A DNA stretch of 64,000 nucleotides from Candidatus Woesebacteria bacterium GW2011_GWB1_33_22 (lineage in GTDB: Bacteria > Patescibacteriota > Microgenomatia > UBA8517): assembly GCA_000989765.1 (NCBI GenBank), contig LBOW01000001.1:118538-182537 (forward strand), given 5' to 3'. The notes under the pieces were generated by a model, which worked only from the letters and a program-made list of their open reading frames with translations, did not search any database and had not been told where the DNA came from. Shown here one piece after another: positions 5,489-60,515 of this stretch (positions within the stretch are counted from its first letter, which is position 1; each line of letters starts with the position of its first letter). Position numbers and translations under genes: made by a program.

Positions 5489-6619
5489 ATGGATCTTAAT
5501 AATCTGAAAATTGCAATTGTATATGATAGGGTAAATAAATTTGGTGGGGCGGAGAGAGTGTTGTTGTCATTTCATGAGATGTTCCCAAAAGCACCACTTT
5601 ATACATCTGTTTACGATCCCAAAAAGGCTTCTTGGGCGTCAGTTTTCTCAAAAATTTACACAACTTTTCTACAAAAGATACCTATATTACGAAATTATCA
5701 TGAACTAATGGGGTGGTTGATGCCAATAGCTTTTGAGACTTATAATTTTGACAATTACGATTTAGTGATTTCTGTTACTTCTGAGGCCGCAAAGGGAATT
5801 ATTACGGGCACAAAGACGTTACATGTTTGCTACATGTTAACTCCCACTCGCTACCTTTGGTCACACTATGAGTCATACTTTAAAGGTTCAACCTTTAAAG
5901 GTCTGACTAAACCAATTGTTAATTATTTAAGATGGTGGGATGAGGTTGCAAGTAAAAGACCCGATAAAATAATAGCAATATCAACTGAAGTGAAAAGAAG
6001 AATAAAAAAATATTATGATCGTGATAGTGAGATAATATTCCCTCCCGTTAATTCTCCCGAGGTGGCATTAGTAAATCACCCCAGGGGTGGAATTTATTAT
6101 TTATACGTAGGGAGATTGGTTGGTTATAAAAAAGTTGATTTATTAATTGAGACTTTTAATGATTTAGGTTTACCACTTGTTGTGGTGGGAATTGGTGCAG
6201 AATTATCTAAATTAAAACGTAAAGCTCATAACAACATCAAATTTTTATGTCAAGTAACAGATAAAGAGTTAGTCAAAATATATCAAGGTGCAAAGGCATT
6301 GATAATGCCCCAAATAGAAGACTTTGGAATTACTTCAGTTGAGGCTCAGGGAATTGGAGTTCCTGTTATTGCATATAATAAAGGTGGAGCAATGGATACT
6401 GTCATACCAAATAAGACTGGAATTTTTTTTAATAACCAAACAAAAGAAAGTTTAAAGCAGGCAATTGCAAAATTTGATACAATGAGATTTAATAATATAG
6501 ACTTAATAAACAATGCTAAAAATTTTTCAAAAGAGAAATTTAAAAGAAAACTACAAAGATCACTTGTACGCTCTTATAGTAGTTGGTGGAGGAGGAACAC
6601 GTCTTTGGCCAGTATCTAA
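5489..6619 (+). CDS. glycosyltransferase family 4
   Basis: N-terminal KIAIVYDRVNKFGGAERV and C-terminal GT1 signature; contains an in-frame REP palindrome at 5878-5900. Confidence 0.75.
   Translation: MDLNNLKIAIVYDRVNKFGGAERVLLSFHEMFPKAPLYTSVYDPKKASWASVFSKIYTTFLQKIPILRNYHELMGWLMPIAFETYNFDNYDLVISVTSEAAKGIITGTKTLHVCYMLTPTRYLWSHYESYFKGSTFKGLTKPIVNYLRWWDEVASKRPDKIIAISTEVKRRIKKYYDRDSEIIFPPVNSPEVALVNHPRGGIYYLYVGRLVGYKKVDLLIETFNDLGLPLVVVGIGAELSKLKRKAHNNIKFLCQVTDKELVKIYQGAKALIMPQIEDFGITSVEAQGIGVPVIAYNKGGAMDTVIPNKTGIFFNNQTKESLKQAIAKFDTMRFNNIDLINNAKNFSKEKFKRKLQRSLVRSYSSWWRRNTSLASI
5878..5900. repeat. REP-like palindrome copy 1 (CTTTAAAGGTT-C-AACCTTTAAAG), in-frame inside a GT4 gene
   Basis: perfect 11-bp arms; encodes FKGSTFKG. 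Confidence 0.85.
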
Positions 6620-16667: not shown

Positions 16668-17918
16668 ATGGCTAAGTTTTTAATAACAGGCGGAAAGAAA
16701 CTTGAAGGAGAAATTGACATTTTTGGTAACAAAAATTCTGCCTTAAAACTTATCCCAGCAGTTCTTGTATCTGCCTCAAAATCGATTCTTACCAATGTTC
16801 CAAACATCTCAGATGTTAGAGTTTTAATCGAAATAATAGAAAAATTAGGTGCTAAAACAAGCTTTAAAGATAATGTACTAGAGATTGATGCAACAACTTT
16901 GAATTCATATGAGCCTGATCCAGATTTGTGTTCAAAGATTAGGGCTTCAGTAGTTCTTGCAGCCCCTCTTCTTGTGAGGTTTGGTAAGGCCGTATTAACC
17001 CCGCCCGGCGGTGACCAGATTGGGGATAGGCTTCTTGATACTCATTTCTCAATGATGCAAAAGCTTGGAGCAAACTTCAGACGGGAAAATGGTAAATTTT
17101 ATCTCACATGGGATAAAAAAATTGGTGGAAAGATATTTTTAGAAGAAGCCTCAGTCACTGCTACAGAAATGGGGATTATTATGGCCTCATCAATGAACGA
17201 AGAAGTAACAATTGAAGATGCAGCTGCCGAACCACATGTCGGTAATTTGATAGATTTACTTGTCAAAATGGGAGCAAAAATTATTGGTCGTGGTACAAAT
17301 ACCTTAACTGTTTCGGGAGGAAAACTTAATGGAGTTGAGCATAAAGTTATGGCTGATCATATTGAAGGTGGAACCTTTGCTATTGCCTCTGCAATTACTG
17401 GAGGGAAAATTAAGATCAATAATTTTGAAGTTGAAAACTACCACATGATTCTAAATTATTTAGGAAATATGGGAGTTAGTTATAAAATTGAAAAGAACAG
17501 TTTAATTGTATTACCTTCAAAACTTATTGCTTCAAGAAGAAAATTTCAAACCAGACCTTGGCCAGGTTTTCCAACAGACTTGATGAGTCCATTTATAGTT
17601 CTTGCAACACAAACCGCAGGAACAGTTCTTTGCCATGATTGGATGTACGAATGGAGGATGTTTTTTGTCGATGACCTTATAGGAATGGGTGCTAACATTT
17701 TTATTGCAGATCCACATAGAGTAATAATTTCAGGTCCAACAAAACTAATGGCAGATAGACTTTTTTGTAAAGATATAAGGGCGGGAATATCAGTTATTTT
17801 GGCTGCATTGGCAGCAGAAGGAACTAGTACTATTGAAAATGTCGAAGTTGTAGATAGAGGTTATCAAAATATAGAAGATAGGTTGAGAACATTGGGTGCT
17901 TCTATTGTAAAACAATGA
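16668..17918 (+). CDS. murA: UDP-N-acetylglucosamine 1-carboxyvinyltransferase MurA
   Basis: length and conserved N-terminus FLITGGKKLEGEIDIFGNKNSALKLI. Confidence 0.9.
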   Translation: MAKFLITGGKKLEGEIDIFGNKNSALKLIPAVLVSASKSILTNVPNISDVRVLIEIIEKLGAKTSFKDNVLEIDATTLNSYEPDPDLCSKIRASVVLAAPLLVRFGKAVLTPPGGDQIGDRLLDTHFSMMQKLGANFRRENGKFYLTWDKKIGGKIFLEEASVTATEMGIIMASSMNEEVTIEDAAAEPHVGNLIDLLVKMGAKIIGRGTNTLTVSGGKLNGVEHKVMADHIEGGTFAIASAITGGKIKINNFEVENYHMILNYLGNMGVSYKIEKNSLIVLPSKLIASRRKFQTRPWPGFPTDLMSPFIVLATQTAGTVLCHDWMYEWRMFFVDDLIGMGANIFIADPHRVIISGPTKLMADRLFCKDIRAGISVILAALAAEGTSTIENVEVVDRGYQNIEDRLRTLGASIVKQ

Positions 17919-19819
17919 TTCAATTTGATTCAAGAAAAGTTAAAAAGGGCGACACCTTTGTAGCTATAAAGGGTTTGACTCATGACGGAAATGATTTTAT
18001 TCAAGATGCAATCAAAAACGGGGCCATCAAAGTATATAAAAATAGTAATTATGAAGAACTGGGGAAATTAGTTAAAGATTATTACAAGGATCCAAGTAGT
18101 AAATTAAAAATAATAGGTGTTACTGGAACAAAAGGTAAAACCACAACTTGTCATTTGATTCACCATATTTTGTTGGAAAGTGGCAAAAAGACAGGTTTAA
18201 TTTCATCGATTACTACTGATGGTTTTCATACAACTACACCCGATGTCATTTCGCTAAATCAAGAACTTTCTAATATGCTCAAAAAAGGTTATGAATATGT
18301 TGTTTTGGAAGTCAGTTCTCATGGAATAGATCAAGGTAGAATTGCTGGAATTAAATTTGATATTTCTGTTTTGACAAACATCCATCCTGAACACTTAGAC
18401 TACCATAAAACATTTGAAGAATATAAAAGAGTTAAAATGATGTTTATAAATTCGGCTAAATTTAGAGTATTTAGTCCGTCTTCTAGTAAGTTAAAGATTC
18501 TTCAGGGGGAATTTAATAATATAAATGCAGAAACAGCTGTTGAAGTAGCAATGGAATTAGGAATTAGTAAAGAGAAGGCTCTAAAATCACTTAAGACATT
18601 TAAATTACCTAGTGGTAGGTTAGAAGAAATTGATACTCACAGGGATTTTAGGGTATTTGTAGATTTTGCTCATACTCCAGATTCTTTGGAAGCTGTACTT
18701 AAATATTTAAGAACTATTACAAAAAATAGATTAATTTCTGTTTTTGGTTGTGCGGGAGAAAGAGATCCAAAAAAAAGATCAAAAATGGGAAAAATTTCAA
18801 CTGAAATTGCAGACCTTTCTATTTTTACTGCAGAAGATACTAGAACAGAATCTATTTTTGATATTCTAAAACAGATGCGATCAAAGGCTATTAAAAATAA
18901 ATTTATCTGTATTCCTGAAAGAGGAGAGGCGATTGCTCACGCGTTATCAATTGCTAAAAAAGGTGATATCGTTGGTGTCTTTGGAAAGGGGCATGAGAAA
19001 TCAATGTGTTACTTAAATTTTGAACACTCTTGGAATGATCAAAAATTTATTAAAAATTTATTATTAGGTTATAAGGATTTATCAGGAATTATCTTAGCTG
19101 CAGGTAAGGGAACTAGAATGAAATCTAATTTACCTAAGGTGATTCACACAATTTGTGGTAGACCAATGATTTCATATTCATTGGAAAATTTGAGAAATAC
19201 TGGTATTGTAAATTTATTACCCGTTATTGGATATAAGAGACATTTAGTTCTTCGAGAAATATCAAGAAATATTGACTTTGTTGTACAAATAAAAACATCT
19301 GGCACGGGAGATGCAGTTAAAATAGCTCTAACTAAAATTAATCCAAAGATGAAAAATATTTTAGTAATAAATGGTGATGATAGTGCTTTTTACAAACCAG
19401 AAACGATTAAAAATGTTATAGAAACACACATTAATAGTAAAGCTGTGATAACTTTTGTTAGCTTGATTCAAGGAAATCCTAAAGGTCTAGGAAGGGTAGT
19501 AAGAAACAAGCATGGCCAGTTTAAAGCAATAATAGAAGAAAAAGATGCAAGTGAAGAGGTAAGAAAAATAAAAGAAGTAAACGATGGACTTTACATATTT
19601 AATCAAGTTTGGCTTAGGAAAAATATTTTAAAGTTAACAAAAAGCCCTATTAGTAAAGAATATTATTTAACAGATCTTTTAAAAATTGCAGTTGATAAAT
19701 CTGAGAAAATATCAATTTATAAACTTCCAGACTCAAGTGAGTGGCAGGGAATTAATACCCCAGAACAGCTTCAAGAAGCAGAAGAAAAAATGAAAAAAAG
19801 ATTAAATGAAAAAATATAA
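17915..19819 (+). CDS. murE: fusion protein: MurE-like Mur ligase (aa 1-~375) plus GlmU-type N-terminal sugar-1-phosphate nucleotidyltransferase domain (aa ~385-634)
   Basis: Mur ligase P-loop IGVTGTKGKTTT and DFAHTPDSLEAVL C-domain, then ILAAGKGTRMKSNLPKVIHTICGRPMI, the GlmU uridyltransferase signature; no LbH acetyltransferase repeats. Confidence 0.75.
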   Translation: MIQFDSRKVKKGDTFVAIKGLTHDGNDFIQDAIKNGAIKVYKNSNYEELGKLVKDYYKDPSSKLKIIGVTGTKGKTTTCHLIHHILLESGKKTGLISSITTDGFHTTTPDVISLNQELSNMLKKGYEYVVLEVSSHGIDQGRIAGIKFDISVLTNIHPEHLDYHKTFEEYKRVKMMFINSAKFRVFSPSSSKLKILQGEFNNINAETAVEVAMELGISKEKALKSLKTFKLPSGRLEEIDTHRDFRVFVDFAHTPDSLEAVLKYLRTITKNRLISVFGCAGERDPKKRSKMGKISTEIADLSIFTAEDTRTESIFDILKQMRSKAIKNKFICIPERGEAIAHALSIAKKGDIVGVFGKGHEKSMCYLNFEHSWNDQKFIKNLLLGYKDLSGIILAAGKGTRMKSNLPKVIHTICGRPMISYSLENLRNTGIVNLLPVIGYKRHLVLREISRNIDFVVQIKTSGTGDAVKIALTKINPKMKNILVINGDDSAFYKPETIKNVIETHINSKAVITFVSLIQGNPKGLGRVVRNKHGQFKAIIEEKDASEEVRKIKEVNDGLYIFNQVWLRKNILKLTKSPISKEYYLTDLLKIAVDKSEKISIYKLPDSSEWQGINTPEQLQEAEEKMKKRLNEKI

Positions 19820-22591: not shown

Positions 22592-23767
22592 ATGAAAAGC
22601 ATTCACTTAATGGGGATTTTAGGTAGTGGAATGTCTGGAATTGCTTCACTGGCATCTCAAATGGGCTACCAGGTCTCAGGTTGTGATTTAAAACTTGAAG
22701 GTCACAACAGTGAACACTTGAAAGACATTGATTTATTAGTCGTCTCTCCTGCAATTTTGTATCAGGAAAAAGAAGATCCAGAACTTATCTTAGGAAAGAA
22801 TAAAAACATTGTCACAACTTGGCAAGAATTTTTAGGGAAATATCTAATGAAAGATAAAAAAGTTATTGCAATAGCAGGAACACATGGTAAATCAACCACT
22901 ACTGCAATGGTAGCTAAAATTTTAATTGATAATGGATTTGATCCAAGTGTTGTAATTGGTGCATATGTTTTTGAGTGGAAAGGAAATTCAAGGTATGGTA
23001 AAGATAAATATTTTATAGTTGAAGCAGATGAATTCAACGATAATTTTTTAAACTACTATCCAAATATTGCTGTTATCAATAACATAGAATTTGACCACCC
23101 TGATTATTTCAAAGATGAAAAACAGGTATTTGAAAGTTTTGAAAAATTTAAAAAGAATTTAGTAGGGGAAAAAATTTTAATTACTGAAAAAGATAGTCTT
23201 AATAAACGTTTTAATTTGAAAGTTTTTGGCGAACATAATCAAAAGAATGCCAACATGGCCTACTTAGTAGGAAGACAATTAAAAATTAAAAAAGAAGAAA
23301 TAATAAAATCTTTAGAAAATTTTACTGGAATCGGTAGAAGGATGGAATTAATAGGAAAAGTAGGTAAAACTTTAGTTTTTGATGATTACGCGCATCACCC
23401 TACAGCCATAAGGGCAACTCTGGCGGGTGTTAGACAGAGATTTTCTAATAGAATCTGGGCAATTATTGAAGCCCATGGATTTAATAGAACTAATGCCTTA
23501 CTTAAACTATATAAAGGTGTATTTAGTAATGCAGACAAAGTAATTGTTGGTCCAATTTATAAAGCTAGAGATAAAAACACCTTTGAAATGACTCCTGAAA
23601 AAATTGCGATAGCTTCAGGGCATAAAGATATAAAAGCTTGTAATACAATTGAAGAAATTATAAATACCTTAAAAAATGAAGTTAAACAAAAAGATATAAT
23701 CGTGGTTATGGGTGCGGGAAATAGTAACTTATGGGCAAAACAAATACTAAAAGCTTTAAAGAATTAA
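22592..23767 (+). CDS. murC: UDP-N-acetylmuramate--L-alanine ligase MurC (short form)
   Basis: N-terminus IHLMGILGSGMSGIASLASQMGYQVSGCD and P-loop AIAGTHGKSTTT. Confidence 0.8.
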   Translation: MKSIHLMGILGSGMSGIASLASQMGYQVSGCDLKLEGHNSEHLKDIDLLVVSPAILYQEKEDPELILGKNKNIVTTWQEFLGKYLMKDKKVIAIAGTHGKSTTTAMVAKILIDNGFDPSVVIGAYVFEWKGNSRYGKDKYFIVEADEFNDNFLNYYPNIAVINNIEFDHPDYFKDEKQVFESFEKFKKNLVGEKILITEKDSLNKRFNLKVFGEHNQKNANMAYLVGRQLKIKKEEIIKSLENFTGIGRRMELIGKVGKTLVFDDYAHHPTAIRATLAGVRQRFSNRIWAIIEAHGFNRTNALLKLYKGVFSNADKVIVGPIYKARDKNTFEMTPEKIAIASGHKDIKACNTIEEIINTLKNEVKQKDIIVVMGAGNSNLWAKQILKALKN

Positions 23768-24693
23768 CAACTCTAAAAGTTGGTGGAGAAATAAAATACT
23801 TTTTTGAAGTAAAGAATCAAAAAGAATTGGTTGACAAAGTTTCTTTTGCAAAAAATAAAAGTCTCACCATTTTTATAATAGGTGGTGGAAGTGATATTGC
23901 TGTATCTGACAAAAATTTCGAAGGAGTAGTTATTAAATATGTAGGTAGTAGTGTACAGGTAATAGGTAATTTGGTTAAGGTTGAGGCGGGAATGAATTGG
24001 GATAAATTAGTAGAAGAAACAGTTAATAGAAATTTACAGGGGATAGAGTGCTTGTCAGGAATTCCCGGTAGCGTTGGGGCGTCGCCCATACAAAACATAG
24101 GTGCATATGGACAAGAATTATCAGAAACTTTTATAGAATTAAAAGCATACGATATATCAAATCAAAAGTTTGTAATATTTAAGAACGAGGATTGTAAATT
24201 TAGTTATAGAGAAAGTATTTTTAAAAGAAAAGATTATTGGCAGAAATTTATAATAGTAGATATTACACTTAAGCTAAAAAAATATACTGATAATAATCTA
24301 GAATTACAAACAATTAGGGATGAAATATTAAGAATAAGGGGAGAAAAATTGGTAAATCCTGATGAAATTCCAAATGCCGGGTCATTTTTTAAAAACCCAA
24401 TAATAAACAAGAGTAAAAAAGATACCCTACTTATAAAGTATCCCGAAATGGTAATATTTCCCTTCAACAATGAGTACAAAATTTCAGCTGGTTGGCTGAT
24501 AGAAAAAACGGGTTGGAAAGGAAAAAGTTTAGGGCCAGTTAAAGTTTCAGATAAACACTCTTTAGTATTAACAAATCCAGAAGGAAAGGGAACTTTTTCT
24601 GACATTAAAAGTCTGGCTGATACAATAATTGCTGATGTAGATAATAAATTTGGAATTAAACTTGAGCCAGAAGTACAATATATAAATTTATGA
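23731..24693 (+). CDS. murB: UDP-N-acetylenolpyruvoylglucosamine reductase MurB
   Basis: FAD-binding IIGGGSDIAV and GIPGSVGASPIQNIGAYG motifs. Confidence 0.85.
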   Translation: MGKTNTKSFKELTTLKVGGEIKYFFEVKNQKELVDKVSFAKNKSLTIFIIGGGSDIAVSDKNFEGVVIKYVGSSVQVIGNLVKVEAGMNWDKLVEETVNRNLQGIECLSGIPGSVGASPIQNIGAYGQELSETFIELKAYDISNQKFVIFKNEDCKFSYRESIFKRKDYWQKFIIVDITLKLKKYTDNNLELQTIRDEILRIRGEKLVNPDEIPNAGSFFKNPIINKSKKDTLLIKYPEMVIFPFNNEYKISAGWLIEKTGWKGKSLGPVKVSDKHSLVLTNPEGKGTFSDIKSLADTIIADVDNKFGIKLEPEVQYINL

Positions 24694-27146
24694 ATTATAA
24701 AGATTTAAGAAAAAAATATCCAGAATTTACTTATGATAGTTATTCTTGGAGATTAGATGGTAATAATTTAAATTTAAATTTTATTTATAAAGTAGGAGAA
24801 TTTGAATTTAAACATGAAATAATAATTGAGAATTTAGATAAATACTCAATTAACAAAGTTAATGAACAGATAGATACCCTTGTCTTCAATATCGGAATGG
24901 TTGAGATTTTTAATTACTGGAAAACCTTTTGTTCTCCAAAAATAGTTATCAAAGCTGGTTTCTTGAACGAGCATCAGATTAATTGGTGGAAGAAATTGTT
25001 AATAAAGGGTATGGGGCAGTATTTTTATGAAAATAAAATTGATTTCACAACAAAAAATTTTGTCGATTTTACGACTACAGGACAACCTTTAAAGGTTGAA
25101 CCTTTAAAGGTATTGGGGGAAGAAGTTTTGATACCTATTGGCGGGGGAAAAGATTCTGCTGTTACTTTAGAATTGGTTACTAAAAATTTTGAAAACAGTT
25201 TAGGTTTAATAGTAAACAAAATCAAAGCAAGAGTTGATTCTGCATCTGTTGCGGGTATTAAAACAATGGTTGTCAAAAGAACTTTAGACAAAGCAATGAT
25301 AGATTTAAACAAAAATGGCCTGTCTGCCGGCAGGCAGGGATATTTAAATGGACATGTACCGTTTACAACAGTTTTATCATTTATCTCTATTTTGGTGGCT
25401 TTTTTGAATAACAAAAAATATATAGCTTTTTCAAATGAACAAAGTTCCAATGAGGGAAATGTGACATTTAAAGGGTTATCTGTTAACCATCAATACAGTA
25501 AATCTTTTGAGTTAGAAAATGATTTTAGAGAATATAATTTTAAATATTTGACTGATATAGAATATTTTAGTTTCTTAAGGCCAATTTATGATATTCAGAT
25601 AGCTAAAGTTTTTTCTCAATATTCTAAATATTTTTACAAAATAGTAAGTTGCAATATAGGAAGAAATAATAATATTTGGTGTGGTAAGTGTCCGAAATGT
25701 TTGTCGACATTTATTTTATTTAAACCTTTTTTAAAAAATGAAACTATAACAATATTTGGGAAGGATTTATTGGCTGATAAATCACTTAAACCTGTTTTGG
25801 ATGCACTAACAAATGACAATTTAGTTAAACCGATGGAGTGTGTGGGAACAAAACATGAATTAAGAGTGGCCTTGGGTGTAGAAAACGATGACAATTTAAT
25901 AAATTTTTGGGGAGAAAACAATCTACCTGCAATTTTTAAAATTATTCTTTATTTTAACTTAAATTTCAAAGATAAAAAAATTCTAATTTTAGGGTATGGA
26001 CGTGAAGGTAAAAGTACAGAAAAGTTGATTAAAAAATATTTACCTAAACAAAAAGTTGACATAGCCGACCAAAAATTGAGTAAAGATTATTTAAAAGATT
26101 TAAATAATTATGATTTTGTTTTTAAATCACCAGGAATACCAAATAAATTAAGAGAAATTCAAAATGCTAAGAAAATGGGTACTGTTTTTGCGTCCCAGAC
26201 TAAAATATTCTTAAAATTATATCGAGATAATGTTATAGGAGTAACAGGAACAAAAGGTAAAAGTACAACAAGTTCACTAATTTATTATATATTAAAATCT
26301 GCGGGCATAAATACGACATTGGTAGGTAATATTGGCAAACCTGTTTTTGACTATTTAGATAATGATGACAAAGATAAGATTTTTGTTGCAGAGCTTTCGT
26401 CTCATCAATTAAGTGATGTTCAGGATAGTCCACATATTGCAGTTCTATTAAACATCTTTCCTGAACACCTCGATTACTATGAAGATTTTAATGATTATAA
26501 GAAATCAAAAGAGAATATATTTAAGTTTCAAAAATCAACAGATATTTATATTTCCTGTGAAGATATAAATAATTTTGAGTTACCTAAAATTAAAACAAAT
26601 TTAATAGGTCAACATAATTTAAGTAACATTAAAGCTGCTTTTCTAGTCGCATTAAAACTTGGAATTGACAAAAAAGACATTATTAAAGCACTTTCCACAT
26701 TTGAATCTCTTGAAGATAGGTTGGAAACAATAAGAGAAATAAATGGTATAAAGTTTATAGTTGATGGTTTAGCAACAATCCCTGAGGCATCTCTTGCTGG
26801 TATTGATAGTTTTGAAAACAAAAATATAACCCTAATTTTGGGAGGATTTGATAGAGGTGTAAGTTTTGCTTCTTTTGGAAAAGAGTTAATTAAAAGAAAA
26901 AACATTAAAAACATAATTCTTATTGGTCAAACTGCTGATAAAATTGAAAAATCTTTAAAAAATTCAAAAGCTAATGTTTATAATTTAGGTTTTGTTTCCA
27001 TGAATAAGATTATTCAAAAAGCATTTGAAATTTCAAAAAAAGATTATATAGTTTTATTTTCTCCTGCCGCAACGAGCTTTGACATGTTTAAAGATTATGA
27101 AGAAAGAGACAATCAATTTAAGGAGGCAGTGAAAGCTCTAAAATGA
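24690..27146 (+). CDS. murD: fusion protein: N-terminal ~420-aa PP-loop ATP-pyrophosphatase-like domain (GGGKDS) with a C-terminal Cys cluster, plus C-terminal MurD (UDP-MurNAc-L-Ala--D-Glu ligase)
   Basis: PIGGGKDSAVTLELV PP-loop; CNIGRNNNIWCGKCPKC cysteine cluster; then the MurD Rossmann KKILILGYGREGKST and P-loop GVTGTKGKSTT; contains two in-frame palindromic repeats. Confidence 0.7.
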   Translation: MNYKDLRKKYPEFTYDSYSWRLDGNNLNLNFIYKVGEFEFKHEIIIENLDKYSINKVNEQIDTLVFNIGMVEIFNYWKTFCSPKIVIKAGFLNEHQINWWKKLLIKGMGQYFYENKIDFTTKNFVDFTTTGQPLKVEPLKVLGEEVLIPIGGGKDSAVTLELVTKNFENSLGLIVNKIKARVDSASVAGIKTMVVKRTLDKAMIDLNKNGLSAGRQGYLNGHVPFTTVLSFISILVAFLNNKKYIAFSNEQSSNEGNVTFKGLSVNHQYSKSFELENDFREYNFKYLTDIEYFSFLRPIYDIQIAKVFSQYSKYFYKIVSCNIGRNNNIWCGKCPKCLSTFILFKPFLKNETITIFGKDLLADKSLKPVLDALTNDNLVKPMECVGTKHELRVALGVENDDNLINFWGENNLPAIFKIILYFNLNFKDKKILILGYGREGKSTEKLIKKYLPKQKVDIADQKLSKDYLKDLNNYDFVFKSPGIPNKLREIQNAKKMGTVFASQTKIFLKLYRDNVIGVTGTKGKSTTSSLIYYILKSAGINTTLVGNIGKPVFDYLDNDDKDKIFVAELSSHQLSDVQDSPHIAVLLNIFPEHLDYYEDFNDYKKSKENIFKFQKSTDIYISCEDINNFELPKIKTNLIGQHNLSNIKAAFLVALKLGIDKKDIIKALSTFESLEDRLETIREINGIKFIVDGLATIPEASLAGIDSFENKNITLILGGFDRGVSFASFGKELIKRKNIKNIILIGQTADKIEKSLKNSKANVYNLGFVSMNKIIQKAFEISKKDYIVLFSPAATSFDMFKDYEERDNQFKEAVKALK
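25086..25110. repeat. REP-like palindrome copy 2 (CCTTTAAAGGTT-G-AACCTTTAAAGG), in-frame inside the PP-loop::murD gene
   Basis: perfect 12-bp arms; encodes PLKVEPLKV. Confidence 0.85.
25319..25338. repeat. GC-rich palindrome copy A (CCTGTCTGCCGGCAGGCAGG), in-frame in PP-loop::murD
   Basis: 20-bp palindrome with 1 mismatch; encodes LSAGRQG. Confidence 0.8.
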
Positions 27147-27802
27147 TAAAAGTTGAGGGTGGTGTACCCTTTTTTAAATTTAATCAATTAGAAAATTCAG
27201 GTGTAATCAATTTTGTATCTACAAGAATTGGTGGAGTAAGTCAGGATTCTAGAGACGCATTGAATTTATCATTTGATAATGAAAGTGTCGGCCAAGGTTT
27301 ATTTTTGCATGAAAGTGAGATAGATGGTGTTGATGGTATGATTACAACGCTTCCAAATATTTGTTTATGTGTAGTATCAGCAGATTGTTTACCAATTGTT
27401 TTTTTTGAATCAGAAAAAAGAATAATATCAATATTACATTCAGGTTGGCGCGGATTATCAAGTGGAATTATTGAAAAAATGGTATCCAGTATAACTGAAA
27501 TTGGTGGTAATCCAAAAAAAATTAAAGTCTGTATAGGTCCATTTATAGACGCAAAAAACTACGAAGTTGAAGATGTGTATCATCTTTTTAGTGACATACC
27601 TAAAGCATTATTTCCAAAATCGCAATCGAAAAAATATTTAGACTTAGGAGTTGTGGCAACATCTAAATTAACAGAAATGAAAATTGTTAGAGAAAATATC
27701 GAGATGTCAGGTTATTCGACATATTCAGATGCACATTTATTTTTTTCGTATCGAAGAAACAAGCCGACTGGAGCAATAATGACTGGAGTGATGTTAAAAT
27801 AA
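27143..27802 (+). CDS. pgeF: peptidoglycan editing factor PgeF / YfiH (DUF152) family protein
   Basis: CVVSADCLPIVFF...HSGWRG catalytic motifs; dcw-cluster location. Confidence 0.8.
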   Translation: MIKVEGGVPFFKFNQLENSGVINFVSTRIGGVSQDSRDALNLSFDNESVGQGLFLHESEIDGVDGMITTLPNICLCVVSADCLPIVFFESEKRIISILHSGWRGLSSGIIEKMVSSITEIGGNPKKIKVCIGPFIDAKNYEVEDVYHLFSDIPKALFPKSQSKKYLDLGVVATSKLTEMKIVRENIEMSGYSTYSDAHLFFSYRRNKPTGAIMTGVMLK

Positions 27803-27805
27803 AGC

Positions 27806-28873
27806 ATGAAAAGGTTATTACAAATCTGGGTGGGTAAAGATCTACCTTTGGTACATGTAAAATTAAACAACGGTTTAAAAAAACTTTTTTATGATTTAGT
27901 ACTTCATCCAGTAAAAAGAAGAGTAGCCAAGATTTATGTGAAGTTTTTACAAAAGTTTTTTAAACTCACTGTTGTTGGTATAACTGGGAGTGCTGGTAAA
28001 ACAACTACTAAGGAAATGATTGTTAACATTTTAAAAAGAGTAGACAATACCGTGTGGAGTAAGGACAATATTGATCCTATATTTAATATTCCCACGACAA
28101 TATTAAAATGTACACCTAAAACAAAATATCTTGTACTTGAAATGGGCGTCGAATATCCAAATGAGATGGATTTTTACCTTTGGTTGGTTCGACCGTCAAT
28201 TGGTGTGATTACTAACATTTTTTCCACACATACTTTGTTTTTTGGAAATGAAAAGGGAGTTTTTAAAGAAAAAAGTAAACTAGTAAAAAGTACGAACATT
28301 GCCATTTTAAACTCAGATGACAAGTATCTCTATTCTTTAAAAGATAAGATTAAAGCAAATATTTGTTGGTTTAAAAAAGATGAAGACCCAATTTTGCAAA
28401 ATAAAAATACTGCAAGAGCAGTTTGCGAGGTATTGGGTATTGAAAAGACGTTAATTGAAGAGGGACTAAGTGATTATGAAAATCCCAAACATAGGCTATC
28501 TATGATTAAACATAAATCTGGGGCATATATTTTTGATGATACTTACAATAGTAATCCAGAAGCTTTTAGAAATAGCCTTTCATATTTTGTAAAACTGGCG
28601 GGGAAAAATAATAAAATTGCAGTTGTTGGGGATATGTTAGAACTTGGGGAGAGAGAGGTTGAAGAACACAAAAAAATCGCCAAAGAACTTAAAAATAATA
28701 ACTTTAAAAAAGTTTTTGGGGTTGGTAAATTAGTTAAATATATCACAAACGATGTTTACAATGATCCTTTGTCGGTTATGCCAAACTTGAAAAAATATCT
28801 TAAAAAGGAAAATTATATTTTTATTAAAGGATCTAGATCAATTGGTTTAGACAAACTTGTTGATAGGTTGTAA
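27806..28873 (+). CDS. murF: UDP-MurNAc-tripeptide--D-Ala-D-Ala ligase MurF (short form)
   Basis: Mur ligase P-loop VVGITGSAGKTTTKEM; position before mraY. Confidence 0.75.
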   Translation: MKRLLQIWVGKDLPLVHVKLNNGLKKLFYDLVLHPVKRRVAKIYVKFLQKFFKLTVVGITGSAGKTTTKEMIVNILKRVDNTVWSKDNIDPIFNIPTTILKCTPKTKYLVLEMGVEYPNEMDFYLWLVRPSIGVITNIFSTHTLFFGNEKGVFKEKSKLVKSTNIAILNSDDKYLYSLKDKIKANICWFKKDEDPILQNKNTARAVCEVLGIEKTLIEEGLSDYENPKHRLSMIKHKSGAYIFDDTYNSNPEAFRNSLSYFVKLAGKNNKIAVVGDMLELGEREVEEHKKIAKELKNNNFKKVFGVGKLVKYITNDVYNDPLSVMPNLKKYLKKENYIFIKGSRSIGLDKLVDRL

Positions 28874-29934: not shown

Positions 29935-31037
29935 AAAGACCGTTTGATAAACAATTTTTCTATTTAATTTTAATTCTTGTAGCTGTTGGGCTTATTTTTG
30001 TCGCAGATATTTCCGCCCCACAGGCACTAAATTTTTTTAATGATAAATTTCATTTTTTAAAATCTCAAATAATATCTGCAGTCATTGGAATTGTCATAAT
30101 GTATATTATTTCGTTTGTAAATTATTCACTTTACAAAAAAATAGCTACACCATTATTTATTTTTTCTTGTTTACTTTTACTTTTAGTTTTTATACCAGGT
30201 TTAAGTTACGAAGCTTTAGGGGCAAGACGTTGGATTAACATAGTGGGATTTAACTTTCAACCGTCTGAAGTGGTTAAATTAACCCTTGCAATCTATTTAG
30301 CAAAACTAGCTGAAATCGGTAAAAAACCAATTGCTTATTTTGCACCTTTTGTTTTGGTTGCAGGACTTATTATGTTGCAACCTGATTTGGGAACAACTTT
30401 AGTTATCTCGATAATTGCCTTAGCTCAAATTTTTGTTTCGGGAATTCCCTTTCTTTATTTCTTTATTTCTTTATTGGTGGGATTATTAGGAGTTATTGGT
30501 TTAATATTGATTTCTCCATACCGGCGGGATAGATTATTGACATTTTTTGAAAATACTGTTGATCCATTAGGAAAAGGTTATCATATTAGGCAGATTCTAC
30601 TGGCTTTGGGGTCAGGCGGTTTTTTTGGTGTAGGCTTAGGCCAGTCTAGGCAAAAGTATTTATTTTTACCTGAAGCTTCAACCGATTCAATTTTTGCAGC
30701 CATTGCTGAAGAATTAGGCTTTTTAGGATCGTTTGTTTTAATTATTATTTTTGCATTTTTTGTATATAAAGCTTTTATGATTGCAAGATATGCACCTGAC
30801 ACTTTTTCAAAAATACTTGCTGTGGGTATATCATCTTGGATCAGTGGCCAAATAATAATTAACATTTCTTCAATGACGGCATTAACACCTCTAACAGGCA
30901 TTCCACTTCCATTCTTTTCATATGGTGGCACTTCCCTGGTGATGGTTCTTGTTGGTTGCGGTATACTACTTAATATAAATCGATATGGAACAAAAAAGGT
31001 TGTTGATCACAGGAAGTCACGCCGGCACTACCGCTGA
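29916..31037 (+). CDS. ftsW: SEDS-family lipid II flippase/peptidoglycan polymerase FtsW
   Basis: 10-TM SEDS protein between mraY and murG. Confidence 0.8.
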   Translation: MVGHNMKRPFDKQFFYLILILVAVGLIFVADISAPQALNFFNDKFHFLKSQIISAVIGIVIMYIISFVNYSLYKKIATPLFIFSCLLLLLVFIPGLSYEALGARRWINIVGFNFQPSEVVKLTLAIYLAKLAEIGKKPIAYFAPFVLVAGLIMLQPDLGTTLVISIIALAQIFVSGIPFLYFFISLLVGLLGVIGLILISPYRRDRLLTFFENTVDPLGKGYHIRQILLALGSGGFFGVGLGQSRQKYLFLPEASTDSIFAAIAEELGFLGSFVLIIIFAFFVYKAFMIARYAPDTFSKILAVGISSWISGQIIINISSMTALTPLTGIPLPFFSYGGTSLVMVLVGCGILLNINRYGTKKVVDHRKSRRHYR

Positions 31038-58692: not shown

Positions 58693-59959
58693 TTTTTTAT
58701 TTATTTTAGTAGGAATATTTTTAAGGCAATTTAATATAAATAACGACTATTACTTTACTGGTGAACTTGGCAAAGAACTTATTTTTACTAAACATTTAAT
58801 TGATAACAATATATTTCCAGTAATAGGGATGACTACTTCACATGAGTGGCTAAGTTATGGCCCAATTTATTATTGGATATTAATTCCTTTAACTAAAATA
58901 TTTTCATTTAACCCCTTAGTTTTATTTTGGTTGGCATTTGCAGTTTCAATTATGGGCTTAGTAGTTAACTATAAAGTTATTAAAGAAATAGCAAATCAAA
59001 AAATTGCTATATATTCAACAGTTTTAATTAGTTTATCGCCTTTATTCATATGGCAAACAAGGCTTTCAAAACTTCATGTGTTTTTCTTTATATTAACTCC
59101 TATCTTAATATATTTATTACACAAATTATGGCAAGCTAACTGTAAATATATTTTTTGGACAGGCCTAGTATTTGGTATATTTTTTAGTTTTCATTTTAGT
59201 CAAATTCCACTTATTTTTGTGATTCTAACTATAATGCTAATTAAAAAATATGATTTTTTAAGTTATCTAAAACTATTAATTGGAATTATTATTCCAAATT
59301 TAGGAATAATTTTAAAAGACATAAAAATTTTTCTCTGGTTACCTTATAGAAGTCTTGGTTTATCAAGTGAATCTTCAGGGCAAACGCTAGATTATTTTAA
59401 CAAATTTTTTGGAATGCAATTTTTTTGGGATCAGAAGTTTTGGTTTTTGGGAAGTATATTTTCGATTGGAATCCTAATATTTTATTATAAAAAATACATA
59501 AAATCTGTTAATAATAACTTTTTTAATTTTTATTTAATATTTTCTAGCCTAGTTGTTTTTGGAGGTTTAATATTACATAAAAATCCGCCAATTCACTACT
59601 TTCTTCCAATATTTCCTAATGTCTTTTACATGCTGTCGATTTTGATGGATAAGTATTTTAGCAATAAACAAGTCATATTTATCTTTTTAGTATTTTCAAT
59701 TATTAACATTTGGCGTTATGAAATGCCGACAGATATTGATTATGTGTCTTATAAAAAACAATTAGAAATTTCACAAAAAATTGTTGAAGAAAATAAAGGT
59801 AATTCCATCAAAATAAAAAGAGTTGGACCTTATGATTATTTTCCTGAAAATTATTCCCAAAACTATAAATTCTTAATTTGGTATTTAGGTGGTAAAATCG
59901 ATGACAATTCTGATAATGTAGTTATTATTGATGACAATGAAAATATTAACACTAAATAA
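58685..59959 (+). CDS. polytopic membrane protein (GT-C/polymerase-like)
   Basis: 10 or more TM helices; C-terminal soluble tail. Confidence 0.4.
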   Translation: MINFLFILVGIFLRQFNINNDYYFTGELGKELIFTKHLIDNNIFPVIGMTTSHEWLSYGPIYYWILIPLTKIFSFNPLVLFWLAFAVSIMGLVVNYKVIKEIANQKIAIYSTVLISLSPLFIWQTRLSKLHVFFFILTPILIYLLHKLWQANCKYIFWTGLVFGIFFSFHFSQIPLIFVILTIMLIKKYDFLSYLKLLIGIIIPNLGIILKDIKIFLWLPYRSLGLSSESSGQTLDYFNKFFGMQFFWDQKFWFLGSIFSIGILIFYYKKYIKSVNNNFFNFYLIFSSLVVFGGLILHKNPPIHYFLPIFPNVFYMLSILMDKYFSNKQVIFIFLVFSIINIWRYEMPTDIDYVSYKKQLEISQKIVEENKGNSIKIKRVGPYDYFPENYSQNYKFLIWYLGGKIDDNSDNVVIIDDNENINTK

Positions 59960-60515
59960 GAAAAATATTACAGATTTTGCTTCAGCGCGAAATGATTTAC
60001 TTGATAAATCAGCGTCTGACTGGAATTTATTTTTAGATAGTGATGAAAGATTAAGTAAAAAAATAAATCAGTCATTTAGTAAATCATTAAACCAATATGC
60101 ATTGGAGAGAAAAAATTTCTTTCTTGGTCAATATGTAGGCTCAGATAAAATTGTTAGACTGGTCAAGAAAGGAACTGGAAAATGGCAAAGAGCCGTTCAT
60201 GAAACATGGACTCCGAATAAAACTCTCCTGCCTGCCGGCAGGCAGGACTCCCGATGTGGGATTTTAGATTCTGTTATTATTCATAATACTGCTGACAACT
60301 TGGTAGATTATCTTTCAAAAATTAATAATTATTCAACTCTGCATGCAAAAGAAAATAAAAAAGAAAGTAAAATATCAAATATTTTTAAAATTATATTTTT
60401 TCCAATGGCTAAATTTATTATAACTTTAATTAAATCAAGAAATATTGTTTTTAGTATAATGCAATCACTGCATTCTTATCTTTCATGGACAAAATTATAT
60501 TTACGGCAATACTAA
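59928..60515 (+). CDS. GT2-like glycosyltransferase fragment (DxD region onward)
   Basis: WNLFLDSDERL DxD-type motif but lacks the N-terminal ~80 aa of a GT-A fold; contains the GC-rich palindrome at 60227-60246. Confidence 0.35.
   Translation: MMTMKILTLNKKNITDFASARNDLLDKSASDWNLFLDSDERLSKKINQSFSKSLNQYALERKNFFLGQYVGSDKIVRLVKKGTGKWQRAVHETWTPNKTLLPAGRQDSRCGILDSVIIHNTADNLVDYLSKINNYSTLHAKENKKESKISNIFKIIFFPMAKFIITLIKSRNIVFSIMQSLHSYLSWTKLYLRQY
60227..60246. repeat. GC-rich palindrome copy C (CCTGCCTGCCGGCAGGCAGG), in-frame in the GT2-like ORF
   Basis: perfect 20-bp palindrome; encodes LPAGRQD. Confidence 0.8.

What the first reader, a model, noticed from the sequence alone, without database searches (positions are those of the whole stretch)
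24690..27146. PP-loop ATP-pyrophosphatase-like domain fused N-terminally to MurD
The first ~420 aa carry a PP-loop (PIGGGKDSAVTLELV) and a C-terminal Cys cluster (C-x10-C-x2-C-x2-C) reminiscent of QueC/ExsB-type or other N-type ATP pyrophosphatases. The C-terminal ~400 aa are a complete MurD. PP-loop enzymes adenylate carboxylates or carbonyls for amidation or thiolation. Fused to the D-Glu-adding ligase, such a domain could amidate the D-Glu alpha-carboxylate to iso-glutamine, as MurT/GatD does in Gram-positives, or otherwise modify the stem peptide. This domain also hosts one copy of each palindromic element.
Basis: partly seen in the sequence, partly recalled or inferred. Interest (0 to 1): 0.65.

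Follow-up and report, generated by a model that had tools for sequence, protein, structure and literature searches.

The report
Fused MurL epimerase–MurD2 ligase enzyme
This single gene from a Candidatus Woesebacteria (candidate phyla radiation, CPR) bacterium joins the two enzymes of a known alternative cell-wall route: one adds ordinary L-glutamate to the wall precursor and the other flips it to the D-form using ATP. It is therefore a fused version of a known pathway, not a new amidating enzyme.

Summary
The 818-aa ORF at 24690-27146 is real, and the identical protein is called on at least 24 contigs from independent assemblies of Candidatus Woesebacteria.

[quoted passage not shown] They match NCBIfam MurL at E = 1.9e-62 and carry Pfam MurL_N and MurL_epimerase_C.

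Residues ~421-818 are a complete MurD-type ligase. Its chirality-determining positions are MurD2-like (E592, R722, L694, against D182, K348, K319 in E. coli MurD), so it most likely adds L-Glu.

A high-confidence AlphaFold model matches only PP-loop enzymes (QueC, TtuA, NAD synthetase), and GGGKDS aligns on the SGGKDS of TtuA. The amidation idea (MurT/GatD-like) is not supported.

Closest relatives keep murL and murD2 as separate overlapping genes. Fusions recur in at least 100 protein clusters, in both domain orders.

MurL is far more widespread (CPR, Bacteroidales, Firmicutes) than the published reviews state.

Verdict: a known pathway in a fused architecture that I did not find described. 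Moderate interest.

The parts
24690..27146 (+). Whole fusion ORF, 818 aa, MurL-MurD2. Its start overlaps the murB stop (ATGA) and its stop overlaps the pgeF start (ATGA).
24690..25943 (+). [quoted passage not shown] Residues 1-~125 form the N-terminal beta/alpha subdomain (MurL_N). Residues ~126-418 form the PP-loop core plus a helical C-terminal part.
   Evidence: NCBIfam NF041275 E=1.9e-62 over residues 70-397; Pfam MurL_N and MurL_epimerase_C on record; AF2 mean pLDDT 94.1
25140..25157 (+). PP-loop motif GGGKDS (residues 151-156), a variant of SGGxDS and the presumed ATP alpha/beta-phosphate binding site
   Evidence: G152, G153, K154, D155 and S156 are each at least 97% conserved in 215 MurL domains (G151 did not reach the 95% listing there, though it is invariant in the 40-sequence alignment); aligned on SGGKDS of TtuA PH0300 at E=1.8e-4
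25341..25355 (+). YLNGH motif (residues 218-222). N220, G221 and H222 are at least 96% conserved; H222 is a candidate catalytic residue.
25485..25502 (+). NHQYSK motif (residues 266-271). H267 and K271 are 100% conserved.
25647..25700 (+). Cys cluster S-C321-x9-C331-x2-C334-x2-C337, a presumed structural Zn site as in QueC
   Evidence: each Cys at least 99% conserved
25836..25850 (+). ECVGT motif (residues 383-387). C384 is 100% conserved and is a candidate acid/base for C-alpha epimerisation (inference).
25085..25111 (.). 27-nt AT-rich element ACCTTTAAAGGTTGAACCTTTAAAGGT, within the codons for QPLKVEPLKV (residues 132-141) in a variable linker. It is also present at the same place in the orthologue on L001.
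25319..25338 (.). 20-nt GC-rich palindrome CCTGTCTGCCGGCAGGCAGG, an in-frame lineage-specific insertion encoding GLSAGRQ (residues 210-216)
   Evidence: the columns for residues 210-215 are empty in 214 other MurL domains; a 7-residue gap in the closest relatives; residues 211-215 are the only segment with pLDDT below 50
25935..25967 (+). Fusion junction FKIIL|YFNLNF (residues 416-426). Relative to L001 and L002, the murL stop codon, the murD ATG and the frame offset are all gone.
25950..27146 (+). MurD2-type Mur ligase domain (residues ~421-818) with N-terminal Rossmann-like, central ATPase and C-terminal domains
   Evidence: TIGR01087 319.9 bits; Mur_ligase_M 518-627; Mur_ligase_C 677-793; PDB MurD matches to 2.5e-49
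26247..26267 (+). Mur-ligase P-loop GTKGKST (residues 520-526)
26451..26468 (+). NIFPEH. E592 is equivalent to E. coli MurD D182 and X. oryzae MurD2 E197. H593 is equivalent to the catalytic H183.
   Evidence: PMC8788868
26763..26780 (+). DGLATI. L694 is equivalent to E. coli MurD K319, where the K319T mutation lets E. coli MurD accept L-Glu.
   Evidence: PMC8788868
26841..26858 (+). GGFDRG. R722 is equivalent to E. coli MurD K348 and X. oryzae MurD2 R358.
   Evidence: PMC8788868

Best explanation
The ORF encodes a bifunctional enzyme that carries out both steps of the MurD2/MurL alternative route for putting D-glutamate into peptidoglycan. The C-terminal MurD2-type ligase domain uses ATP (giving ADP and Pi through an acyl-phosphate) to add L-glutamate to UDP-MurNAc-L-Ala. 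The N-terminal MurL domain then binds a second ATP at its PP-loop and adenylates the alpha-carboxylate of the terminal L-Glu, releasing AMP at the end of the reaction. This acidifies the C-alpha proton. [quoted passage not shown] The four-Cys cluster most likely holds a structural zinc ion, as in QueC. Fusing the two activities guarantees 1:1 stoichiometry and may hand the L-Glu intermediate directly from one site to the other. Shown here: homology of each half, the fold, conserved motifs, the MurD2 residue signature, synteny, and recurrence of the fusion. Taken from the literature: the MurL and MurD2 reactions, and AMP formation. Inferred: adenylation at the PP-loop, the identity of the catalytic base, zinc binding, and channelling.
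For: MurL homology: NF041275 at E=1.9e-62 over residues 70-397; Pfam MurL_N and MurL_epimerase_C on the identical protein; JGI names close homologues UDP-N-acetyl-alpha-D-muramoyl-L-alanyl-L-glutamate epimerase. PP-loop fold: AF2 model with pLDDT 94.1 and pTM 0.93. The top 20 Foldseek PDB hits are all PP-loop enzymes: NAD synthetase at 5e-4, QueC at 6e-4 (target-normalised TM 0.57-0.60), TtuA, carbapenam synthetase, argininosuccinate synthase, MnmA and related proteins. A profile of the family hits TtuA at E=1.8e-4 with GGGKDSAVT aligned on SGGKDSAVT. This fits the published observation that MurL consumes one ATP and forms AMP (PMC8788868). MurD2 signature: E592, L694 and R722 at the positions of E. 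coli MurD D182, K319 and K348. In X. oryzae MurD2, the E197D/R358K double mutant switches specificity from L-Glu to D-Glu (PMC8788868). The same E-[I/L]-R pattern is seen in 69 of 74 MurL-adjacent MurDs from species-representative genomes. Among 106 MurD domains from the representative search (99 fused, 5 stand-alone, 2 adjacent), Arg occupies the K348 position in 102 and Lys never occupies the K319 position. Four canonical MurDs in the PDB have Lys at K319, and three of them read D-K-K. Linkage: murD lies downstream of murL in 74 of 80 loci from many phyla. There are 96 further MurL-MurD and 8 MurD-MurL fusion clusters among the best-scoring representatives. Context: the gene sits inside murA/murE/murC/murB/.../pgeF/murF/mraY/ftsW/murG and is the only MurD-class gene in the window, and no MurI homologue is present in 64 kb. 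All family-invariant residues are intact in the window protein.
Confidence: 0.85

Rival explanations
1. One reading: the PP-loop domain adenylates the D-Glu alpha-carboxylate and amidates it to iso-glutamine, acting as a cytoplasmic analogue of MurT/GatD.
For: The PP-loop fold is shared with amidating enzymes such as NAD synthetase, GMP synthetase and asparagine/carbapenam synthetases. The proposed first chemical step, adenylation of the alpha-carboxylate, would be the same.
Against: The domain is homologous to a family whose characterised members epimerise and do not amidate (PMC8788868, PMC5808125). No glutaminase domain is found in the ORF and none appears among the neighbours that were annotated. 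The MurT model matches only the ligase half, at 28.5 bits against a cut-off of 800. The partner ligase has the L-Glu signature, which requires an epimerase downstream.
Confidence: 0.03
2. The ligase half is a canonical D-Glu-adding MurD. The MurL half is then an editing or salvage activity that corrects occasional L-Glu mis-incorporation, in parallel with the PgeF editing factor encoded next door, and is not an obligatory pathway step.
For: TIGR01087 murD is passed above its cut-off. pgeF, a peptidoglycan editing factor, is conserved immediately downstream in the window, L001 and L002. D-Glu supply in the rest of the genome was not examined.
Against: TIGR01087 cannot tell chirality, since XOO_1320 itself was annotated as MurD (PMC8788868). 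The E-[I/L]-R signature is nearly universal in MurL-linked MurDs. That signature includes both positions whose reversion switches MurD2 to D-Glu. No MurI homologue occurs in the window. Tight 1:1 fusion suits consecutive steps better than occasional repair.
Confidence: 0.08
3. The fusion is an assembly or sequencing artefact, or a recent pseudogenising frameshift, and the two proteins are really made separately.
For: The closest relatives (73% and 57% identity) have separate, overlapping murL and murD genes. The junction is A/T-rich and so prone to indels.
Against: The identical 818-aa product is found on at least 24 contigs from independent projects. The junction differs from relatives by several coordinated changes: stop lost, murD ATG lost, frame merged, and no internal ATG. 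There are 96 other MurL-MurD and 8 MurD-MurL fusion clusters, and 6 of 80 species genomes carry a fusion.
Confidence: 0.02

Closest known systems
[quoted passage not shown] 2017, as reviewed in PMC8788868 and PMC5808125)
   Same: Both domain families are the same. The gene order is murL then murD2. The MurD2 residues E197 and R358 have equivalents here. The enzyme chemistry is ATP-dependent and AMP-forming, which fits the PP-loop found here.
   Different: Here the two are one polypeptide, in a CPR (Woesebacteria) genome and not in Xanthomonadales, Alphaproteobacteria or rare actinobacteria. The match to the Xanthomonadales MurL profile is only 211 bits against its 700-bit equivalog cut-off. 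There is a lineage-specific 7-residue palindrome-encoded loop insertion. No activity has been tested.
PP-loop ATP pyrophosphatases: QueC (PDB 3bl5, 2pg3), TtuA (3vrh, 5b4f), NAD synthetase (2e18)
   Same: The Rossmann-like core is shared, with an SGGxDS-type loop (GGGKDS here). As in QueC, a C-terminal Cys cluster with CxxCxxC spacing is present. All carry out adenylate-forming chemistry.
   Different: MurL adds a ~125-residue N-terminal subdomain and a helical C-terminal part. The first motif residue is Gly and not Ser. The outcome is inversion of configuration followed by hydrolysis, not transfer of nitrogen or sulfur. Sequence identity is only 13-19%.
MurT/GatD lipid II isoglutaminyl synthase
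   Same: It also modifies the alpha-carboxylate of the stem-peptide glutamate using ATP.
   Different: MurT is itself a Mur-ligase-family protein that works with a glutaminase partner on lipid II. The N-terminal domain here is unrelated to MurT or GatD, and no glutaminase is present.
Other bifunctional Mur fusions: MurE/MurF (NF008896) and MurC/Ddl (NF011171)
   Same: These are fusions of consecutive or linked peptidoglycan-precursor enzymes encoded by neighbouring genes.
   Different: The partners differ. Those fusions join two ligases, whereas this one joins a ligase to a PP-loop epimerase.

Membership tests
[quoted passage not shown] | Sequence membership: Pfam MurL_N (PF26299) plus MurL_epimerase_C (PF26298) | tested here: met
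   Precomputed Pfam hits, unmarked (E at most 1e-5), on the identical protein. The local Pfam copy lacks these two models, so one search shows nothing for residues 1-420.
[quoted passage not shown] | NCBIfam equivalog NF041275 (MurL_Xanthmoales) passed above its cut-off | tested here: not met
   211.2 bits against a cut-off of 700, at E=1.9e-62 over 327 of 447 profile positions.
[quoted passage not shown] | Genetic pairing with a MurD-type ligase | tested here: met
   Fused in the window. murD is downstream in 74 of 80 loci.
[quoted passage not shown] | ATP/Mg-dependent, AMP-forming, unidirectional L-to-D epimerisation of the terminal Glu | not testable with these tools
   Needs an enzyme assay. 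The PP-loop fold is compatible with AMP formation.
[quoted passage not shown] | Host genome lacks glutamate racemase and D-amino-acid aminotransferase | tested here: inconclusive
   No homologue of E. coli MurI in the 64-kb window. The rest of the genome could not be read.
[quoted passage not shown] | Three-domain MurD-type Mur ligase with catalytic His183, Lys198 and Ser415 equivalents | tested here: met
   TIGR01087 at 319.9 bits, above 211.95. H593 and K607 are present, and the Ser in SPAATSFD is present.
[quoted passage not shown] | Glu at the E. coli MurD Asp182 position and Arg at the Lys348 position (E197 and R358 of X. oryzae MurD2) | tested here: met
   E592 and R722. The positions are defined in PMC8788868.
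[quoted passage not shown] | Preference for L-Glu over D-Glu | not testable with these tools
   Needs an enzyme assay.
PP-loop ATP pyrophosphatase superfamily | SGGxDS-type PP-motif after the first beta-strand | tested here: met
   GGGKDS at residues 151-156 follows strand 145-149 and starts helix 154-166. It aligns on the SGGKDS of TtuA. G152, G153, K154, D155 and S156 are each at least 97% conserved.
PP-loop ATP pyrophosphatase superfamily | Rossmann-like alpha/beta fold superposable on known members | tested here: met
QueC-like zinc site | Four Cys residues (C-x(n)-C-x2-C-x2-C) binding zinc | tested here: inconclusive
   The motif is present and at least 99% conserved. Metal binding was not testable, and the comparison with the QueC zinc site comes from memory.
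MurT/GatD isoglutaminyl synthase | MurT-type ligase with its C-terminal domain, plus a GatD glutaminase | tested here: not met
   NF052464 MurT scores 28.5 bits against a cut-off of 800 and only on the ligase half. No glutaminase domain was found.

The most novel reading that the evidence does not exclude
The MurD2/MurL route, not glutamate racemase, is the main source of peptidoglycan D-Glu across large parts of the Patescibacteria (CPR) and many uncultured Bacteroidales and Firmicutes. MurL itself is a QueC-like PP-loop adenylating enzyme that uses invariant Cys384 and/or His222 and His267 as the epimerisation base. The recurrent fusions act as channelling machines that never release the L-Glu intermediate.
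Probability: 0.45. Interest if true: 0.55.

Novelty: new variant of a known kind. Interest (0 to 1): 0.38.

Why it matters
The pathway itself is known, but three points go beyond the literature I could search.

1. The natural fusion, in both domain orders and arising many times, is independent Rosetta-stone evidence that MurL and MurD2 act as a unit.
2. [quoted passage not shown] Assigning it to the PP-loop fold explains the ATP-to-AMP stoichiometry and names specific residues to mutate: K154, D155, H222, H267 and C384.
3. The reviews promote the pathway as a narrow-spectrum antibiotic target confined to a few genera. Here MurL relatives appear at 589 or more places in species-representative genomes, including CPR, Bacteroidales from gut and rumen, and Firmicutes. 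That weakens the narrow-spectrum premise.

A single-polypeptide version would also be a convenient reagent for biochemistry and structure determination.

Tried and rejected
- Pfam scan of the ORF gave nothing for residues 1-420, because the local Pfam copy lacks the MurL models.
- A single-sequence phmmer search of the N-terminal domain against the PDB gave only non-significant hits, with TtuA at E=2. The profile search was needed to reach significance.
- Literature searches for MurL with PP-loop, CPR or Patescibacteria found nothing relevant. One apparent hit (PMC9871819) was a false match on 'Mur_ligase'. A search for 'glutamate racemase' with Patescibacteria returned no papers.
- I could not obtain the X. 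oryzae MurL and MurD2 sequences themselves. The comparison is through the NCBIfam profile and the residue numbers given in PMC8788868.
- I did not predict the full-length structure. No coordinates or PAE are returned, so the distance between the two active sites could not have been measured.
- Artefact hypothesis: considered and rejected.
- TilS-type or another unrelated PP-loop enzyme fused by misassembly: considered and rejected, because the N-terminal domain is MurL.
- The idea that both palindromes are window-specific insertions was rejected for the AT-rich element, which occurs at the same site in the L001 orthologue.
Full report
**Observation**

The window contains an uninterrupted ATG-to-TGA ORF of 818 aa at 24690-27146 on the + strand. 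Its start overlaps the stop of murB (ATGA) and its stop overlaps the start of the next gene. This suggests that translation of these genes is coupled.

- PIGGGKDSAVTLELV lies at residues 149-163.
- Cys residues lie at 321, 331, 334 and 337. The spacing is therefore C-x9-C-x2-C-x2-C and not x10.
- The C-terminal half passes the TIGR01087 murD cut-off (319.9 bits against 211.95) and has Mur_ligase_M and Mur_ligase_C. It matches solved MurD structures down to E = 2.5e-49.
- One copy of each of two palindromic elements lies in the N-terminal half.

**Is the fusion real?**

The two closest relatives of the N-terminal half are 74% and 57% identical. Both encode a 418-aa protein followed by a separate MurD-like gene. 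The two genes overlap by 35 nt in another frame on L001, and by ATGA on L002.

At the window junction (FKIIL|YFNLNF, nt 25935-25967) the murL stop codon, the murD ATG and the frame offset have all disappeared. No internal ATG remains there. That is several coordinated changes, not one indel.

The identical 818-aa product is called on at least 24 contigs in 29 blocks of the collection. These come from independent ENA (Rifle aquifer), NCBI (GCA_001793665.1) and JGI assemblies. NCBI attributes it to Candidatus Woesebacteria bacterium GWC2_33_12 (KKP40692.1), named 'hypothetical protein' or 'UDP-N-acetylmuramoylalanine--D-glutamate ligase'. The fusion is genuine.

**What the N-terminal half is**

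NCBIfam matches residues 70-397 to NF041275, the Xanthomonadales model of MurL (UDP-N-acetyl-alpha-D-muramoyl-L-alanyl-L-glutamate epimerase). The match has E = 1.9e-62 and 211 bits. That is below the lineage-specific equivalog cut-off of 700. The precomputed Pfam annotation of the identical protein is MurL_N plus MurL_epimerase_C. JGI names several close homologues as this epimerase.

[quoted passage not shown] The reaction is unidirectional, uses one ATP and forms AMP. Its partner MurD2 (XOO_1320) adds L-Glu instead of D-Glu (PMC8788868, PMC5808125). [quoted passage not shown] They hypothesise adenylation of the Glu alpha-carboxylate.

**Fold of the N-terminal half**

An AlphaFold2 model built from a 40-sequence alignment is very confident, with mean pLDDT 94.1 and pTM 0.93.

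- The top 20 Foldseek matches in the PDB are all PP-loop ATP pyrophosphatases. They are NAD synthetase 2e18 (5e-4), QueC 2pg3 and 3bl5 (6e-4 and 2.5e-3; target-normalised TM 0.57-0.60), TtuA, carbapenam synthetase, argininosuccinate synthase, MnmA and related proteins.
- A profile of the family finds TtuA PH0300 by sequence at E = 1.8e-4, with GGGKDSAVT aligned on SGGKDSAVT.
- Across 215 MurL domains that are 28-50% identical to the window, these residues are at least 95% conserved: the PP-loop (G152 to S156), R197, N220-G221-H222, E250, N266-H267-Q268, K271, E276, the four clustered Cys, and C384 in an ECVG motif. The window protein keeps all of them.

**What the C-terminal half is**

PMC8788868 reports that E197 and R358 of X. 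oryzae MurD2 correspond to D182 and K348 of E. coli MurD. The E197D/R358K double mutant switches MurD2 from L-Glu to D-Glu. K319T lets E. coli MurD accept L-Glu.

Aligned to E. coli MurD, the window has E592, R722 and L694 at these positions. The catalytic His183, Lys198 and Ser415 equivalents are intact.

| Set of MurD domains | Asp182 position | Lys319 position | Lys348 position | Source |
|---|---|---|---|---|
| 74 MurL-linked MurDs from species genomes of many phyla | Glu 71/74 | Ile or Leu 72/72 | Arg 72/72 | |
| 106 MurD domains from the representative search (99 fused) | Glu 78/106 | never Lys | Arg 102/106 | |
| E. coli, 7sir, T. maritima MurD (PDB) | Asp | Lys | Lys | |
| S. agalactiae MurD (PDB) | Thr | Lys | Arg | |

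The ligase half is therefore best read as MurD2-type, adding L-Glu. TIGR01087 cannot tell the two apart, since XOO_1320 itself was annotated as MurD.

**Linkage and distribution**

- An exhaustive HMMER search with the full-length protein lists its 150 best-scoring 50%-identity representatives. I scanned 148 of them for domain order, leaving out two stand-alone MurL proteins already numbered. There are 96 MurL-MurD fusions and 8 fusions in the opposite order, MurD-MurL.
Of the best 80 loci, 53 have murD immediately downstream, 15 have it nearby on the same strand, 6 are fused, and 6 show none within the flank.
- On a neighbour-joining tree of the MurL domains, the architecture changes at least about 36 times. 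Shuffled labels give about 77, and the largest all-fused clade has 12 members. Fusion or fission has therefore recurred often. This is a rough estimate on a biased sample.
- Hosts include many Patescibacteria: Paceibacterota, Saccharibacteria, Nealsonbacteria, Daviesbacteria, Beckwithbacteria and the cultured Minisyncoccus archaeiphilus. They also include numerous Bacteroidales and other Bacteroidota, and some Firmicutes such as Fumia xinanensis. Single MAGs are labelled Actinomycetota, Vitreimonas and Pseudomonadales.
- This is much broader than the 'relatively few bacterial genera' stated in PMC8788868. I found no paper in the held library that links MurL to CPR bacteria, to the PP-loop fold or to a fusion.

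**Genomic context**

The gene sits in a peptidoglycan-precursor and division cluster:
- murA (16668-17918)
- a murE-glmU(N-terminal) fusion (17915-19819)
- yvcK
- glmS, on the minus strand
- murC and murB
- the MurL-MurD2 fusion
- pgeF (27143-27802)
- murF, mraY, ftsW, murG and ftsA

It is the only MurD-class ligase in the 64-kb window, and no homologue of E. coli MurI is present. The rest of the genome could not be examined.

**Mechanism**

The best explanation has confidence of about 0.85.

1. [quoted passage not shown]
2. The MurL domain adenylates the new alpha-carboxylate at its PP-loop.
3. A conserved base (candidates C384, H222 and H267) inverts the C-alpha centre.
4. [quoted passage not shown]

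The Cys4 cluster is probably a structural zinc site as in QueC, a comparison I make from memory. The homology, fold, motifs, signature and linkage are shown here. The reactions come from the literature on Xanthomonas and two actinomycete orthologues. Adenylation at the PP-loop, the identity of the base, zinc binding and channelling are inferred.

**Rivals**

There is no glutaminase, the MurT model touches only the ligase half at 28.5 of 800 bits, and the family's characterised members epimerise.
- A canonical D-Glu MurD with MurL acting as an editing activity cannot be fully excluded without the whole genome. It conflicts with the near-universal L-Glu signature.
- An assembly artefact is excluded, as described above.

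**Palindromic elements (side observation)**

The GC-rich palindrome at 25319-25338 is an in-frame insertion. The gap in the closest relatives is 7 residues. The columns for residues 210-215 are empty in all 214 other MurL domains examined. Residues 211-215 are the only disordered segment of the model. The insertion sits just before the invariant YLNGH motif.

The AT-rich 27-nt element at 25085-25111 is not specific to this window, because it lies at the same place in the L001 orthologue. Its four other copies in the window lie in different reading frames of other genes. It therefore looks like a DNA-level element and not a conserved peptide motif.

**Verdict**

This is a known two-enzyme pathway (MurD2 plus MurL) in a fused architecture that I did not find described, in a CPR bacterium. 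The fold inference is correct and the functional guess of amidation is wrong. Interest is moderate, for three reasons: the Rosetta-stone fusion, the PP-loop assignment for an enzyme described as having no known domains, and a far wider distribution than published.

Noticed in passing
window 5876-5902, 25085-25111, 32234-32260, 32728-32754, 37983-38009; L001 ~1909-1935: A 27-nt AT-rich element (two tandem copies of the self-complementary 12-mer ACCTTTAAAGGT) occurs five times in the window, against 0 expected in shuffles. Four copies lie inside coding sequence in different reading frames, encoding FKGSTFKG-like peptides in three genes and PLKVEPLKV in MurL. One copy spans the gap between the ORFs at 32057-32734 and 32754-33449. 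The MurL copy is conserved at the same position in the 74%-identical orthologue on L001.
   Followed up: partly
window 25319-25338 and 60227-60246; L001 2774-2791: A GC-rich palindrome, CCTGCCTGCCGGCAGGCAGG, stands out in this ~30% GC genome and is inserted in-frame in coding sequence. It encodes GLSAGRQ in MurL and LPAGRQ in the ORF at 59928-60515. A related CCTGCCTGCGCAGGCAGG adds a DLPAQAG insertion to the murD gene of relative L001. This recalls the in-frame palindromic elements of Rickettsia, a comparison I make from memory.
   Followed up: partly
window 17915-19819: A second fusion in the same cluster: a 634-aa protein with MurE (residues 1-383) joined to the N-terminal uridyltransferase part of GlmU (residues ~388-633). 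The acetyltransferase half of GlmU appears to be missing.
   Followed up: no
L002 2284-4392; protein P0023: Other peptidoglycan gene fusions occur in related CPR genomes: a 702-aa MurC-MurB fusion on L002, and a 722-aa protein (P0023) that combines MurB and MurL domains. Fusing neighbouring mur genes seems common in this group.
   Followed up: no
window 27143-27802; L001 3962-4519; L002 7710-8270: pgeF (peptidoglycan editing factor, Cu-oxidase_4 family) is conserved immediately downstream of murD2, with overlapping stop and start codons, in the window and both close relatives. This hints at a functional link between the L-Glu route and precursor editing.
   Followed up: no
proteins P0138, P0146, P0177, P0197, P0208, P0227, P0236, P0271: Fusions in the reverse domain order (MurD at the N-terminus, MurL at the C-terminus) also exist. 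The two activities have therefore been joined independently in both orientations.
   Followed up: partly
loci L008-L087 (genome contigs): MurL with an adjacent MurD2-signature ligase is common in uncultured Bacteroidales from gut and rumen and in some Firmicutes such as Fumia xinanensis. It also occurs in the cultured CPR bacterium Minisyncoccus archaeiphilus. This contradicts the published view that the pathway is confined to a few genera.
   Followed up: partly
window 22592-23767, 27806-28873, 30985-32028: MurC (391 aa), MurF (355 aa) and MurG score below their NCBIfam cut-offs: 325 against 335, 248 against 289, and 198 against 250. The MurF match begins only at profile position 66, which suggests a shortened N-terminal end; the other two were not examined further.
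   Followed up: no
L002 4389-5198: A gene with a Bro-N domain, often phage-associated, lies between the murC-murB fusion and murL in a close relative.
   Followed up: no
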